A DNA stretch of 63,525 nucleotides, filler included, from Octopus bimaculoides (Eukaryota): the NCBI RefSeq assembly GCF_001194135.2. It is 5 parts of 5 records of this genome, joined end to end, with 100 filler letters (N's around TTAATTAATTAA, not from the genome) between each part and the next. Parts side by side here need not be neighbours in the genome. Positions count along the whole stretch, not along the records: positions 1 to 26,352 come from NC_068985.1; positions 26,453 to 41,993 come from NC_068986.1; positions 42,094 to 50,817 come from NC_068984.1; positions 50,918 to 59,816 come from NC_068990.1; positions 59,917 to 63,525 come from NC_069002.1. One strand, given 5' to 3'. The notes under the pieces are model-generated. The model did no database searches. It saw nothing but the letters and a program-made list of their open reading frames with translations, and was not told the origin of the DNA. Positions within the stretch are counted from its first letter, which is position 1. The number at the start of each line of letters is the position of its first letter. The translations under genes were made by a program, and so were the position numbers. This document shows positions 11,690 to 62,746 of this stretch, piece after piece.

Positions 11690-11775
11690 ACCACTCTATG
11701 TTAACATTTCTGTGCCAAACTTATCCAGTGACTGGTCCATTGGATTTAGACATTTGGCACTTCTTCAGGAGTGGT
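11690..11775 (-). ncRNA. Type I hammerhead ribozyme motif (Penelope-like pLTR)
   Basis: Minus: ACCACTC-CUGAAGA-A-GUGCCAAA[33 nt]UUUGGCAC-A-GAA-AUGUUAACAU(palindrome)-A^-GAGUGGU; stem I 7 bp, stem II 8 bp. Confidence 0.8.
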
Positions 11776-12736
11776 TACCTTTCGAACAAAACACGAAAAA
11801 ACACATACATAACTATTATTAGGTCTNNNNNNNNNNNNNNNNNNNNNNNNNNNNNNNNNNNNNNNNNNNNNNNNNNNNNNNNNNNNNNNNNNNNNNNNNN
11901 NNNNNNNNNNNNNNNNNNNNNNNNNNNNNNNNNNNNNNNNNNNNNNNNNNNNNNNNNNNNNNNNNNNNNNNNNNNNNNNNNNNNNNNNNNNNNNNNNNNN
12001 NNNNNNNNNNNNNNNNNNNNNNNNNNNNNNNNNNNNNNNNNNNNNNNNNNNNNNNNNNNNNNNNNNNNNNNNNNNNNNNNNNNNNNNNNNNNNNNNNNNN
12101 NNNNNNNNNNNNNNNNNNNNNNNNNNNNNNNNNNNNNNNNNNNNNNNNNNNNNNNNNNNNNNNNNNNNNNNNNNNNNNNNNNNNNNNNNNNNNNNNNNNN
12201 NNNNNNNNNNNNNNNNNNNNNNNNNNNNNNNNNNNNNNNNNNNNNNNNNNNNNNNNNNNNNNNNNNNNNNNNNNNNNNNNNNNNNNNNNNNNNNNNNNNN
12301 NNNNNNNNNNNNNNNNNNNNNNNNNNNNNNNNNNNNNNNNNNNNNNNNNNNNNNNNNNNNNNNNNNNNNNNNNNNNNNNNNNNNNNNNNNNNNNNNNNNN
12401 NNNNNNNNNNNNNNNNNNNNNNNNNNNNNNNNNNNNNNNNNNNNNNNNNNNNNNNNNNNNNNNNNNNNNNNNNNNNNNNNNNNNNNNNNNNNNNNNNNNN
12501 NNNNNNNNNNNNNNNNNNNNNNNNNNNNNNNNNNNNNNNNNNNNNNNNNNNNNNNNNNNNNNNNNNNNNNNNNNNNNNNNNNNNNNNNNNNNNNNNNNNN
12601 NNNNNNTGAAATGACCGGAAGCGAAAGGGTGGAGAAAAAGTTCTTTTCAAAGACAGGAGAGTGCAAGAGAAGGAAGTATGTGTGTGTGTGTGTGGTTATG
12701 TGCGTTCGCTCAAGTCTGTGTGTGTGTGTAATGATA

Positions 12737-12775
<39 letters not shown>

Positions 12776-14779
12776 TGTGTGTGTGTGGTTGTGGCTGTTT
12801 ATGTATGTGCGTGGTTGGACATGATATCGTTTAAGGTCATAGGAAGAATTTACTGTAAGAATTTTGGTCGGAGTGTCTGCCTGTTGTGTGTCTACCTACA
12901 CTTGTGCGTAGGAGAATGGTCATTAGAAAGGTTCTGGTAGTTTGAAGTATGTGTGTGTGCGCATATGTATATGTAGTGTGCGTGTGTTTTATTTCCAGTG
13001 TGCGTGTGTGTATGTATGTGTGTGTACGTGTGGGTATGTGTGTACGCGTGAGGCTGTGTCTGTGGAGTAATTGTACTTTACTCTGTGTGTGCGTGTGTGT
13101 GCTCGCATGTGCGTGTGTGTGTGTACATGTATTTGTAATTCATGTGCAACTGTCAGCGTTTCATGTACAAACCGTCAGCGACCAAGCCGGGAACATACAC
13201 AGGCTAACTCGGTGACCAGCGGGTATCAGGACACCTTGCAGGATAAAAAAAAGCCCATCAAAGTCAAGAGAGTCAACGGTCATTCCATTAAATGATACAT
13301 GAATGTGCATGCGCAGGAATGTTTTTCCTTTGGTAGACTTGTGCTCATTAAGCTTACTAAGACGTGTTGTACATTGAGGAGTTAACCGAAAAGCCTGTGT
13401 TATGTTGGTGTTTGAGGTTGTGGTAAGAATTTGCATCAAATTTATATTACCAGCATTCACCCACCCACGAAAAATGTGTAGTTGGGTCTTCAGACCTTCA
13501 CCGCTGAAAACAAATCATCGTTGTGGAGGGTCTAACAGCTACGTTGTTAGACTCTCGTACATTGAGGTAGGTGCAAGAATCTATTATATATCTCTGCCGG
13601 TAAATAAATATGTTGGTTTTGTATGAAAAAGAAAAAAAAAACTACCTTGTGATTGGAAGAAATTATGAAAACCCTCTGCGTTCGTGACTTCCTGACAGCT
13701 ATTAAAATAAATAGCTGTCATGAATAAGTCTATTGAAATGGCTTATGTCGTATTAAAGATACACAGCAGCCCTATGATTAAAATAACATTATAAGACATT
13801 TTAGTGCAGTCATTATCTGTTTTATATCATCATCGCATTGTATAGGATACCCGTCCTACGAACCAACTAAATTAAATGTGAACATAAATTCTCGTTTCTA
13901 GTCTTAACTGAATATTCAAATGTCTTTAGCCGCATTATCGCTACGCAGCAGCCTATCATTATAATAACATTACGATGCACTTTTAGGCAAGTAGTTACTT
14001 GTCTTTTATATCAAAATTGTACTACATGAGAAAGAAAATCTATATAAGAAAATATTATTTATTATACAATACTCTTCTAGAATTTTTCGATAGACAATAT
14101 TCTGTGCAAAAATTCTATTTTCATTTTTCGTTTTTGCCATAATGCTGACTTCATTTGAATAATCTGAATAACGCTAACTATAACACCGTAAAGTTGACCA
14201 GAAATGTGAAATTCATGTCCGTTTACGTAGATACTGACCATTGGAAATGTTTGTTCTTGAGCTTTGTAAGTTGACAGACTAAAAGCTAAATCGATAAAGA
14301 ATTGACATCGTTGCATCTGAGACAACAGCACTGACCACAAGAGGACATATGTAATTCTGAGCAACTTTTAAGAATGCTAAAAGAGATGAAACCGTTAAGA
14401 ATTGTCCTGAGAGTGAGCAAGAGAGGAGAGAAGGGAAAAAACAGAGGGATACAAAGAGAGGGAGAGACATTTTTTTTCTTAATCCTTTCGGGGTTGATAG
14501 AATAAATATCAATCAAGTAAAGGGGTCGATGTAATCAACTTGTTTCTTTCCCTCAGATCTGCTAACTCTGAACCCTGCAAAAGATAGGCGTCTGTTGCAG
14601 GGTACAAGGCCAGCAGTTTTTAAAGAATGTTGTAATTTCGGTAACTTATACGTGGTGGAATCCGGGTAGAGTAATGACCTTGGGTCCTTGGGCGCAAGAG
14701 AAAAAAAGACAGCAAAAACAAAACGAGAACAATCTGGAAAGAGAAAGTATAAGAGAAATGGAATGCGAGTGAGAGGGGG

Positions 14780-14935
14780 GAGGGACGGAGAGAGAGAAAG
14801 AGACGGGGAGGGACGGAGAGAGAGAATGAGAGGAGGAGGAGGAATGAAGAGAGAGAAAGAGACGGGGAGGGACGGAGAGAGAGAATGAGAGGAGGAGGAA
14901 TGAAGAGAGAGAAAGAGAGGAGGGGTGGAGAAGGA
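14780..14935. repeat. Purine-rich tandem repeat (~60-bp unit, GGGAGGGACGGAGAGAGAGAATGAGAGGAGG..)
   Basis: About 2.5 copies readable directly. Confidence 0.8.
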
Positions 14936-15579
14936 GAGAAAGGGGGTGGTGGTACTAGGAAGGAAGCAGACAAAAGGAGTAATGTCGGTAGAAAGTAATG
15001 CAGCGTGTGGCGGGAAAGCTTTGTCGGATCTAGCAATTGTTTGTAACATCGCGTATTTACAAAGACACATCAACCAGCACCATATTGGAAAACAGCGACA
15101 TCTCATGGAAATATAACGAAACATTTCTTGGCGGGACACAGATGACATAAATCGGTGAATCGTGGGTGAAAAAGACAAATTTCGCTACGAAATTGAATCC
15201 ACATTGAACCGCTGTGAAGAGTTGATGAGGCACATAGAAGTAAGTGTGTGTGCGTGTGTGTGTGTGTGAGTGAGTGAGTGGGTGAGTGAGTGTCTATTGT
15301 ATCTTGTATCTCCGTAAAGTGAAAGTGCGTGTGCTCAAAATTTTCGAAGTTACGGATGACAAAGAGCAAACAGTACGTCTGAAGAAGATTTGGTTTTTTT
15401 TTTCTTTTTTATTATTTTTCATCTCGAACGCGCTCAACTAAGCTTTTAATCAACCCTCCATTACTATTTTTATACGTTTTTTTACTTTACTTTATTATTC
15501 TCTGATATGATTCAGTTGTTCTGTCTAATAATGCACAAATCTCTTAATTTATTGTTTCATTTTACGATTCAGTCACGAT

Positions 15580-15584
<5 letters not shown>

Positions 15585-15636
<52 letters not shown>

Positions 15637-15716
15637 ATCCATCACTTCCCATATCCACATACCTCCTACATGACCACAGATTTCTCTTCTCTTTCTCAAT
15701 TTCTTTTCTTTATGCC

Positions 15717-61360: not shown

Positions 61361-61396
<36 letters not shown>

Positions 61397-61851
61397 TAAA
61401 TATATATTTATACATACACATTCATAATATATATATACATATATATTTATATATATCTATATATATATACATATATATATATACACCCATCTAGCGAAAA
61501 ATACATCTTAGATATATATCGGCGGCCAATAAGTCATACATATAAAGGGATGCGCTTTAGACATGGCTCGCTTTTTGCCTTGGTGGGGTGGGGGTGGGGG
61601 GCTAATCTAATTGTTTAGAGAGAGAGAGATAGACTACGAAACCTTTTAAAAGGTATTGAGTGACTTAGTCATTTGGCAAATCCCACTTTTGTCTGTTTAC
61701 CTATTTATCTTTATCCACTTTTCATTCCCCACGCTTCTTCGTGTGTCTGCTGACAATTCTTATTCTTTTTTGAAGTTTTTGGAGTTAGTTTATTAGCATG
61801 ACACACGCATTGTTTAAAAAGTCACCCGAGGAGACGCATCTGCATCAACGT

Positions 61852-61950
61852 TGCAAGACGATTGAGTGTACAGCATCTCACTTGTAAGGAACGGGTCTGC
61901 GATGGGTCGAAATGATCGTAGTGCTTCTCAATAAAAACTCTCGCGAATTT
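61852..61950 (+). promoter_or_regulatory. Inverted complement of 60725-60823; candidate editing-complementary sequence
   Basis: Gapless 99 nt; 73 Watson-Crick + 11 G.U pairs on the + transcript. Confidence 0.45.
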
Positions 61951-62229
61951 CATTTTCTGCCTCTCATCTTTCTTTCTTTCTTTCATTATATAAAATACAC
62001 ACATACATTTGCATACATATACAAGTATACGTATTTTGCGAATATCTGTAATGTGCCCTGAAGCGAAACAAACGTATTTTGTCGGACTCTTTTTCTTTAA
62101 TAAAATCTATTGACACCCACGTTTTATCCTTTGAATTTTTATGTTAAGTCGCCTCTCCATATCTCTATGAATAGTTTATTCAATTACTACGCGCGCATAT
62201 TCATACATACAATGTTTAGATGTTTAGAT

Positions 62230-62338
62230 GTATGTGTACGTACATATGTGTACGTACCTATGTGTACGTACATATGTGTACGTACATATGTGTACGTACC
62301 TATGTGTACGTACCTATGTGTACGTACCTATGTGTACG
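62230..62338. repeat. 14-bp minisatellite TGTGTACGTAC(A/C)TA x~8
   Basis: Direct read. Confidence 0.92.
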
Positions 62339-62576
62339 AGGCACACTGTATAAAATTGAAACTGATACAGACTACCCTGTGTGTGTGTATACATATGTAC
62401 ACTATATATATATTTATATGCATTCTTATATTTGTGTGCCCAAATATATCAACACACATTTATATATATATATACATATATACACACACACACATATACA
62501 TATATATATATATTGATAGAAAGGACAACAAAAGAAAGAAAGAGACCTCGATAATATGTAAATAGAGGAATTTATC

Positions 62577-62743
62577 TGTAAAAATATGTGACACTTATTC
62601 GGTAGCCATGATAAAACTCCGAGTTTCGGATGCCGGGGTAGGAACCCACGCCAACATCTCTTCAGTTATCCGGCCATTGAAAATTCCTGGCATCCGAAAC
62701 TCGGAGTTTTAGCATGGCTACCGAATAAGTGTCACATATTTTT

Positions 62744-62746
<3 letters not shown>
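62577..62746. mobile_element. 170-bp foldback element, 58-bp inverted arms, hammerhead on the minus strand
   Basis: Arm TGTAAAAATATGTGACACTTATTCGGTAGCCATG(A/C)TAAAACTCCGAGTTTCGGATGCC on both sides, 1 mismatch; abuts (TA)n. Confidence 0.9.
62605..62674 (-). ncRNA. Type I hammerhead ribozyme motif, intact core
   Basis: GCC-G-GAUAA-CUGAAGA-GAUGUUGG[GUGGG-UU-CCUAC]CCGGCAUC-C-GAA-ACUC-G-GAGU-U^-UUAUC-AU-GGC. Confidence 0.8.

What the first reader, a model, noticed from the sequence alone, without database searches (positions are those of the whole stretch)
11690..62746. A zoo of hammerhead-bearing short repeats from several unrelated families, two built as hammerhead + inverted copy of its own 3' half
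Seen: hammerhead motifs at 11690-11775(-), 19720-19762(-), 20340-20438(-), 29551-29586(+), 55233-55268(+), 58987-59027(+; plus 58670-58710(-)) and 62605-62674(-). Their stems are mostly unrelated in sequence but the topology is the same: type I, with a short, usually palindromic stem III. The elements at 20304-20569 and 62577-62746 share no sequence yet share one design. The inverted arm begins inside stem II, duplicates GAAA/stem III/cleavage site/downstream tail, and the element abuts (TA)n. Known: Penelope-like elements carry minimal type I hammerheads that cleave as dimers in their pseudo-LTRs, often have inverted pLTR ends, and mobilise non-autonomous retrozyme-like RNAs. Inference: these apparent MITEs are non-autonomous, ribozyme-processed PLE derivatives, at roughly one motif per 9 kb here.
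Basis: partly seen in the sequence, partly recalled or inferred. Interest (0 to 1): 0.75.

Follow-up and report, generated by a model that had tools for sequence, protein, structure and literature searches.

The report
Hammerhead-bearing Penelope stumps with cut scars
The seven short repeats are real and carry hammerhead-ribozyme motifs, but they are the cut-short ends of Penelope-type jumping genes (two traced here to their protein genes), a known design; the one surprise is that a quarter of the copies of one family have small deletions at the predicted self-cutting site, likely scars left when cut RNA was copied into DNA.

Summary
The motifs are there, but only 2 of 8 window copies keep an intact hammerhead; six of seven families have a canonical core by majority, and family G has A6U. 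The 'hammerhead plus inverted 3' half' is not a family design. This is the published Penelope-like (PLE) insertion pattern, so these are not MITEs. Family A is the 3' end of a coding Hydra-clade PLE. Family D is the end of a coding Penelope/Poseidon-type PLE with a tRNA-like head, where most long copies start. E is a ~345-nt tandem retrozyme. B, C, F and G were not linked to a gene. So 'non-autonomous, ribozyme-processed' is only partly right. The less ordinary result: 34 of 129 D arms have 1-5-nt deletions at the predicted cut, arising independently in each arm, which may be scars of self-cleavage in vivo; DNA slippage is not excluded. This scan's notes already describe the PLE-stump design, the tRNA-headed family and the retrozyme in octopus DNA, and cut-site scars once in another genome.

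The parts
11619..11826 (-). Family C: 3' end of a young hammerhead-bearing repeat, tail-less end against (TA)n 11577-11618; upstream lost in a 780-N gap. Sister copies show a ~100-nt optional tail and inverted arms. No ORF link found.
11690..11775 (-). Intact type I hammerhead: C3 at 11768, 7-bp stem I, long stem II, palindromic stem III, predicted cut between 11697 and 11696
   Evidence: (folds as the three-way junction)
19640..19812 (-). Family D: 5'-truncated, tailed copy of the end repeat of a Penelope/Poseidon-type PLE. The tRNA-like head of sister copies is absent here. Minimal hammerhead, C3 at 19757, with the 3-nt deletion allele at the predicted cut site.
20302..20498 (-). Family B long arm: whole hammerhead (C3 at 20428, predicted cut 20353/20352, one stem I substitution), tail-less end against (TA)n 20266-20301
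20494..20729 (+). Family B short inverted arm (20494-20571) plus ~155-nt tail (to ~20729), then an N gap and (TA)n
29521..29685 (+). Family F: old (76-84% alike) minimal-hammerhead repeat, C3 at 29555, G12 lost in this copy; related to G; no ORF link found
55090..55357 (+). Family G (limits approximate): abundant repeat with a hammerhead-like motif, C3 at 55237; family core has U (23 of 26) or C (3 of 26) at position 6; ends at a short (TA)n; no ORF link found
58499..58826 (-). Family E left arm: piece of the previous unit's tail, then one unit body to the tail-less end; decayed hammerhead, C3 at 58706; abuts (AG)n/(TA)n
58825..59237 (+). Family E right arm: end of one ~345-nt unit joined head-to-tail to a full unit with tail, then (TA)n; decayed hammerhead, C3 at 58991; retrozyme-like
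62512..62689 (-). Family A long arm: intact hammerhead (C3 at 62665, predicted cut 62615/62614) plus ~63-nt tail (62574-62512) ending in (TA)n; the 3' end of a Hydra-clade PLE
62686..62749 (+). Family A short inverted arm, tail-less, against (TA)n 62748-62795

Best explanation
These repeats are short, dead insertions of the hammerhead-bearing 3' ends of several Penelope-like retroelement families, likely made when the element's enzyme nicks both strands of an AT-rich target and primes reverse transcription twice, once at each of two fixed start sites that bracket the 'tail'. Shown: arms of variable length, one tail per two-armed insertion, (TA)n or duplicated targets, and ORF links for A and D. 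Inferred: the two cDNAs stop early at independent points and are joined head-to-head, probably from one RNA or one source locus, so each copy is a fold-back with its own junction. Templates are coding PLE RNA for A, probably short RNA polymerase III transcripts from a tRNA-like head for most D copies, and a ~345-nt tandem or circular RNA for E. The hammerhead is mostly copied uncut and is silenced in the fold-back copy by its own inverted arm.
For: Junctions differ in the 30 family A loci and range from +12 to beyond -298 nt of the cut in a tail-only query. Exactly one tail in 27 of 27 resolvable two-armed A loci (3 of 30 hidden by N) and 12 of 13 B loci; D gives 41 tail+core, 3 core+core, 0 tail+tail and 8 unclassified of 52. 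The tail sits on the long arm in 10 and on the short arm in 19 of 29 A loci, and two B loci have an inverted arm made of tail alone (L050, L052), as twin priming on one RNA predicts. Arms share derived substitutions above permuted pairs in A, B and E (0 of 1000 each) and weakly in D (17 of 2000). A: 16 of 30 RT-hit loci also hold the A end (includes the seed locus and one locus counted twice), and L202, L204, L205 run RT, linker, GIY-YIG, 3' UTR, hammerhead with Hydra-clade motifs. D: a 229-aa Penelope/Poseidon-type C-terminus ends just upstream of the head in L136, and five more loci match it; 45 of 74 head-bearing arms start within -10..+9 of the head start; target duplications are visible in many two-armed loci. 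E: 14 of 22 loci have a unit end joined head-to-tail to a unit start. Papers: inverted 5'-truncated copy, one-sided tail and (TA)n bias (PMC8557442, PMC3846280); two RT start sites bracket the tail and both strands are cut and extended (PMC11167929); opposite-strand hammerhead pairs 100-700 bp apart (PMC4209133).
Against: No ORF was linked to B (90 loci, some the same insertion), C, F or G, so their PLE partner is inferred from anatomy. Pfam support for the ORFs is weak (GIY-YIG E 0.008; nothing relevant); clade calls rest on motifs read against PMC8557442. Core+core exceptions exist (L040, L203, 3 D loci). Shared arm variants could come from subfamily structure or gene conversion, not one RNA; the first D sample showed none (732 of 1000). 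ARAGORN found no tRNA in 15 D loci and Rfam none in one, so 'tRNA-like' rests on A- and B-box motifs. PMC3846280 proposes self-priming on an antisense template instead.
Confidence: 0.88

Rival explanations
1. The repeats are dedicated non-autonomous retrozymes: RNAs cut out by their hammerheads (as dimers), circularised, and inserted by a PLE enzyme in trans.
For: Fits E: ~345-nt head-to-tail units in 14 of 22 loci and no ORF, like the mussel 350-390-bp units (PMC7229834). D behaves like a SINE in 45 of 74 arms. B and C show no ORF upstream, only long TA/TG-rich tracts and gaps. D's cut-site deletions suggest that cleavage happens.
Against: A and D are continuous with coding PLEs. Copy ends do not sit at the cut. 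G's core is non-canonical in 26 of 26 copies. Hammerhead mutants did not stop insertion in vitro (PMC11167929).
Confidence: 0.25
2. The fold-backs are MITEs or foldback DNA transposons whose terminal inverted repeats happen to include hammerhead-like sequence.
For: Near-perfect arms, more than a thousand first-look candidates per family (1984 for A, 1576 for B), TA-rich flanks.
Against: Variable junctions, unequal ends (one tail), many single-armed copies, direct links to RT and GIY-YIG ORFs.
Confidence: 0.02
3. For the D hotspot only: the deletions are ordinary DNA replication slippage in a short GT-rich micro-repeat after insertion, or RT stumbling on a folded but uncut RNA, and say nothing about cleavage.
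For: The site has 2-3-nt microhomologies. The same 8-mer in an unrelated repeat shows deletions of 2 nt or more in 0-2 of 12-16 copies per context (overlapping samples of one family, one row 2 of 16). Five other families show almost none at their cut (A 2 of 103, B 0 of 58, C 0 of 28, F 1 of 22, G 1 of 40; E 3 of 30), although A has microhomology there. The age test had no power.
Against: 26% of arms against 0.002 deletion starts per site elsewhere (26 in 12,536). 26 shorter and 0 longer alleles in the first 100 pattern matches. The 3-nt allele outnumbers the 2-nt allele that dinucleotide slippage would favour. In unselected RNA reads the neighbouring AAC-rich stretch shows no indel at 3% or more.
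Confidence: 0.45

Closest known systems
Insertions of endonuclease-bearing PLEs with inverted pLTR and tail (PMC8557442 abstract, sections 3 and 11 and passages; PMC3846280 passages; PMC11167929 parts 1-2 of 4)
   Same: 5'-truncated copy plus inverted 5'-truncated copy, tail on one end, AT-rich or (TA)n target, hammerhead near the 3' end.
   Different: Tails here are ~63 (A), ~100 (C) and ~155 nt (B) against 30-40 nt in print; the one-tail rule is counted here (27 of 27, 12 of 13, 41 of 44 classified).
Hydra clade PLEs, nearest Hydra-1_Obim (PMC8557442 section 11; Files S1, S2, Fig. S7 rows seen)
   Same: Family A ORF has RWK, DKT, a CxCX5C linker, no internal CCHH, CxxC and CxH by the catalytic E and N, a (TA)n target and a 3' hammerhead; long RT stretches read alike by eye.
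   Different: Family A's hammerhead stems and 3' end differ from those listed for Hydra-1_Obim, so it is a sister family. Compared by eye, not aligned.
Minimal type I hammerheads of metazoan PLEs (PMC4209133 parts 1-2 of 4, one supplement searched)
   Same: Many unrelated consensus families per genome, palindromic stem III, extra base after A9, opposite-strand pairs, mostly truncated PLEs.
   Different: A, B, C and E have 4-5-bp stem III and could act as monomers; family G's U at position 6 is not among the variants in the passages read.
Metazoan non-LTR retrozymes (PMC7229834 passages; bioRxiv 2026.07.22.740005 part 1 of 5)
   Same: Family E: non-coding ~345-nt head-to-tail unit with a type I hammerhead.
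   Different: Seen here as partial tandems inside fold-backs; no locus with two same-strand hammerheads was shown; circles untested.
Schistosome Sm-alpha / Sj-alpha SINE-like elements (second-hand, PMC6765202 passages)
   Same: Family D joins a probable polymerase III promoter to a hammerhead.
   Different: D's head lies inside the end repeat of a coding PLE, and D inserts with inverted arms, a tail and target duplications, not as tandem arrays.

Membership tests
Type I hammerhead ribozyme | Canonical core with stems I-III closing around it | tested here: met
   Majority core canonical in A, B, C, D, E and nearly so in F (G12 lies in a decayed CpG, 10 of 21 keep G); 2 of 8 window copies intact
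Type I hammerhead ribozyme | A at position 6 (family G) | tested here: not met
   U in 23, C in 3, A in 0 of 26 copies; A6C cleaves slowly (PMC3088659 passage)
Type I hammerhead ribozyme | Self-cleavage at H17 | not testable with these tools
   No pile of read ends in three unstranded RNA runs; the D deletion hotspot is indirect
EN+ Penelope-like element insertion | Variable 5' truncation with inverted copy and one-sided tail | tested here: met
   A, B, D counted; C and E seen; F and G not examined for inverted arms
EN+ Penelope-like element insertion | Linked RT and C-terminal GIY-YIG ORF | tested here: met
   A and D (endonuclease-bearing C-terminus only)
EN+ Penelope-like element insertion | Linked ORF for B, C, E, F, G | tested here: inconclusive
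   None found within 1.5 kb flanks by tblastn with A and D proteins; assembly gaps hide many upstream ends
Hydra clade (family A) | RWK, DKT, CxCX5C linker, no CCHH, flanking CxxC and CxH, (TA)n target | tested here: met
   read against PMC8557442 section 11; no tree built
Penelope/Poseidon clade (family D) | Two cysteines between GIY and YIG, no upstream zinc-finger linker | tested here: met
   L136 ORF against PMC8557442; RT domain not recovered, no tree
tRNA-derived SINE (family D) | tRNA-related head with A and B boxes | tested here: inconclusive
   Boxes read by eye in many loci and matched by pattern in 1 of 4 tested; ARAGORN 0 of 15, Rfam none
tRNA-derived SINE (family D) | 5' ends pile up at the head start | tested here: met
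   45 of 74 arms within -10..+9; 7 of 74 run 30 nt or more upstream
tRNA-derived SINE (family D) | Non-coding and independent of a coding element | tested here: not met
   The head follows a PLE ORF in 6 loci
Non-LTR retrozyme (family E) | 150-400-nt non-coding head-to-tail unit with a type I hammerhead | tested here: met
   14 of 22 loci with a head-to-tail junction, unit ~345 nt
Non-LTR retrozyme (family E) | Circular unit-length RNA | not testable with these tools
   No reads were laid on E
MITE / DDE foldback | Fixed, symmetric terminal inverted repeats and uniform size | tested here: not met

The most novel reading that the evidence does not exclude
Family D records hammerhead self-cleavage in the genome. 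Its RNA is often cut while packaged for insertion, the two halves stay paired in the ribozyme fold, and the Penelope reverse transcriptase crosses the nick, in about a quarter of passes by a microhomology jump that drops 1-5 nt at the scissile bond. Each arm of a twin-primed insertion makes the crossing on its own. This would be a fossil in vivo read-out of PLE ribozyme activity, in a coding PLE whose end repeat carries a tRNA-derived promoter and spawns SINE-like copies of itself.
Probability: 0.4. Interest if true: 0.72.

Novelty: new member of a known kind. Interest (0 to 1): 0.42.

Why it matters
The zoo itself is expected: PLE hammerheads in many unrelated families, with inverted truncated copies, were described in 2013-2021, including an octopus Hydra element. 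The practical point is annotation: tens of thousands of apparent MITEs in this genome are probably retroelement stumps. Two points bear on open questions. What PLE hammerheads do is unsettled (PMC8557442 calls it unclear; PMC11167929 found cleavage unnecessary in vitro and no reads ending at the cut), and family D's cut-site deletions make in vivo cleavage testable across some 6,600 copies. The counted one-tail rule, with the tail on either arm, narrows how the inverted structure forms.

Tried and rejected
Rfam hammerhead models do not pick up these motifs, so structure was tested by script. MITE reading: rejected. 'Arm starts in stem II' as a design: rejected; it comes from querying with the whole element (against 58). 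Simple snap-back of one tail-primed cDNA: rejected as the sole route, because the tail is on the shorter arm in 19 of 29 A loci. 5' ends at the cut site: not seen in A (0 of 24 within 3 nt). D's 3-nt deletion as a subfamily: no linkage with 11 common variants (Fisher p 0.39 or more), and two-armed insertions split 24 intact, 12 one arm, 4 both of 40, near independence. Age dependence of the deletion: no power, since arm divergences do not correlate and CpG decay does not rise with divergence. ORF for B: none in 30 upstream-selected loci. Pfam and PDB gave nothing firm for the ORFs; 5 longer homologues exist, 3 with PF26215, none named. The run search listed no RNA holder on record; three raw RNA runs with the same species label as some holders were laid instead. 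Literature searches that found no report of cut-site deletions in PLE copies; of twin priming in PLEs; of a tRNA-headed PLE: (listings and abstract starts only, unless cited as read). Repbase, Dfam and subscription papers were not searchable, one supplement of PMC4209133 was not searched, and bioRxiv supplements are closed, so these families may already be catalogued.

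
Full report
Setting. The window is a pack of five stretches of a 2.34-Gb, microsatellite-rich animal genome. I name the families C (11690), D (19720), B (20340), F (29551), G (55233), E (58670 and 58987) and A (62605).

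The observation. Only C and A pass a strict type I scan, against 0.125 expected from 40 shuffles. The rest are decayed copies. Sister copies from the genome show a canonical core in A 50 of 65, B 30 of 31, C 29 of 31, D 14 of 36, E 14 of 30 and F 6 of 21, and in G 0 of 26, where position 6 is U or C. F and G are related; the other pairs are not, apart from a 19-nt match between D and G. In 60 blind 10-kb blocks the same kind of scan finds 13 hits in 524 kb against 0-2 in controls, most with palindromic stem III and mostly from further families. So the zoo is genome-wide, at about one intact motif per 40 kb; the window (34 per Mb) is not unusual for intact motifs. Families A-G together give 8 insertions in those blocks.

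The fold-backs are not a fixed design. Among 30 family A loci the junction between the arms differs from copy to copy. With a query that lies wholly 3' of the cut, arm starts run from +12 to beyond -298 nt, and many copies have one arm only. Both elements are longer than reported, because one arm carries an extension: ~63 nt in A, ~155 nt in B. Two-armed insertions have one such tail: 27 of 27 resolvable A loci (read by eye; 3 of 30 hidden by gaps), 12 of 13 B loci, and in D 41 tail+core, 3 core+core, 0 tail+tail and 8 unclassified of 52. One long RT-bearing A locus (L203) is core+core. This is the pattern described for endonuclease-bearing Penelope-like elements (PMC8557442, PMC3846280), and the tail corresponds to the stretch between two reverse-transcription start sites in vitro (PMC11167929). 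In a read-through RNA the inverted arm pairs with the hammerhead's 3' half (-113.7 and -134.8 kcal/mol), so these copies would not fold as ribozymes.

What each family is. A: one locus had RT-coding DNA beside the hammerhead. Searching with it gave 30 loci, 16 of which also hold the A end (this includes the seed and one locus counted twice). L202, L204 and L205 read RT, linker, GIY-YIG, 3' UTR, hammerhead, end, with RWK, DKT, CxCX5C and no internal CCHH. These are the Hydra-clade marks. The published Hydra-1_Obim has a similar RT but another hammerhead, so A is a sister family. D: sister copies begin with an A-box/B-box head, then (TAA)n, then the hammerhead. Yet 45 of 74 head-bearing arms start at the head (palindromic junctions blur these starts by a few bases), which suggests short polymerase III templates. 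An exact pattern finds 6,648 D sites, control 0. E: a ~345-nt unit joined head-to-tail in 14 of 22 loci, without an ORF, which is retrozyme-like. B, C, F, G: PLE-type anatomy (B and C clearly; F and G less examined), no ORF found, upstream ends often lost in TA/TG tracts and gaps.

Mechanism. Shown: two fixed 3' ends per family, one of each per insertion, independent 5' ends, AT-rich targets. Inferred: both nicked target strands prime reverse transcription, one at each start site, and the cDNAs are joined head-to-head. The tail lies on the long arm in 10 and the short arm in 19 of 29 A loci, which a simple snap-back cannot give, and two B loci have an arm made of tail alone, which is what twin priming on one RNA gives when the first cDNA stops early. 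Arms share derived changes above permuted pairs in A, B and E (0 of 1000) and weakly in D (17 of 2000; none in the smaller sample). That supports one template or one source, but subfamily structure or gene conversion could give the same. A published alternative is self-priming on an antisense template (PMC3846280). The hammerhead does not set the ends: 0 of 24 resolvable A tail-arm starts lie within 3 nt of the cut (6 of 30 dropped for gaps), and three unstranded RNA runs show no pile of ends on D or A, a weak test.

The cut-site deletions in D. Of the first 100 pattern matches listed by position, 26 are shorter at the cut (20 by 3 nt, 4 by 2, 1 by 1, 1 by 5) and none longer (counted by eye). 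In 86 loci around those matches, 34 of 129 arms spanning the cut have a deletion within 5 nt of it, against 26 deletion starts in 12,536 sites outside the pattern zone; among 31 arms not picked by the pattern, 9 have it. In RNA reads, which the pattern did not select, 3-nt deletions at this place make up about 12-15% of depth in each of three runs, and only one other indel reaches 3% (the runs may be from a related species). The deletion is not linked to any of 11 common variants, occurs in tailed (14 of 57) and tail-less (18 of 65) arms, and splits 24, 12, 4 among 40 two-armed insertions, so it arises per arm. Each common allele can be written with one breakpoint at the scissile bond, and the main one is what a jump across a nick would give if the cDNA end re-paired with the GU of the cut 5' half. 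Against this: the same microhomology allows slippage; a small control with the same 8-mer in another repeat gave 0-2 of 12-16; the age test had no power; and the other six families show little or nothing (A 2 of 103, B 0 of 58, C 0 of 28, E 3 of 30, F 1 of 22, G 1 of 40), although A has microhomology at its cut. I put the scar reading at 0.4. Searches did not turn up such a report in print; one unreviewed note of this scan describes the like in another genome, which is a lead and not support.

Papers seen: PMC8557442 (abstract, sections 3 and 11, passages, supplement rows), PMC11167929 (parts 1-2 of 4), PMC4209133 (parts 1-2 of 4, one supplement searched), bioRxiv 2026.07.22.740005 (part 1 of 5), and passages of PMC7229834, PMC3846280, PMC6765202, PMC3088659 and PMC6962438. 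Hammerhead numbering, the SINE promoter boxes and the L1 twin-priming model are recalled.

Verdict. A real and well-spotted feature, of a known kind: hammerhead-bearing ends of several PLE families, one a new Hydra-clade family, one a tRNA-headed Penelope/Poseidon-type family, one a retrozyme. Interest 0.42, carried mainly by the cut-site deletions and the counted one-tail rule.

Noticed in passing
window 55237 (family G); L231-L249, L258, L266, L267, L280, L293: The most abundant of the seven families in blind blocks (5 in 524 kb) has U or C, never A, at hammerhead position 6, with stems intact: a family that spread with a probably weak or dead ribozyme, or an undescribed core variant.
   Followed up: partly
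L061-L090 (family A): 15 of 24 resolvable tail-arm 5' ends fall in a 48-nt zone 37-84 nt upstream of the cut, at or just before the hammerhead's 5' half. A polypyrimidine-CAG motif that looks like a 3' splice site lies in that zone. Cause unknown (RT pause, transcript start or splicing).
   Followed up: partly
L251, L268, L281, L299, L309, L300, L307, L308, L252: Further intact type I hammerheads, most with palindromic stem III, from families not among A-G, found in blind 10-kb blocks.
   Followed up: no
L428-L457 (B), L108 and L117 (C), L066, L078, L085 (A): Families A, B and C carry a TA/TG-rich, microsatellite-like tract in their 3' UTR upstream of the hammerhead; in B it runs several hundred bases and often ends in assembly gaps. 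Such elements may feed this genome's microsatellite load.
   Followed up: partly
L066/L074/L078/L085 against L204/L205: Two family A subfamilies share the last ~114 nt before the cut and the end, but differ upstream in the 3' UTR; both are RT-linked.
   Followed up: partly
window 26405-26827, 27085-27426, 31393-32823, 49713-50379: ORF fragments that look like a LINE reverse transcriptase, a mariner transposase, a hAT-type transposase and another LINE (labels recalled, not tested).
   Followed up: no
window 22295-22761, 35215-35402, 46626-46813, 47290-47477, 49530-49717, 56736-56923, 58142-58329: Other abundant short repeat families without a hammerhead match, one as a 228-nt tandem pair; probably SINEs.
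   Followed up: no
L253, L259, L285, L286: Other PLE ORF remnants in 4 of the 60 blind blocks: three match the Hydra-type family A proteins, one the family D protein.
   Followed up: no
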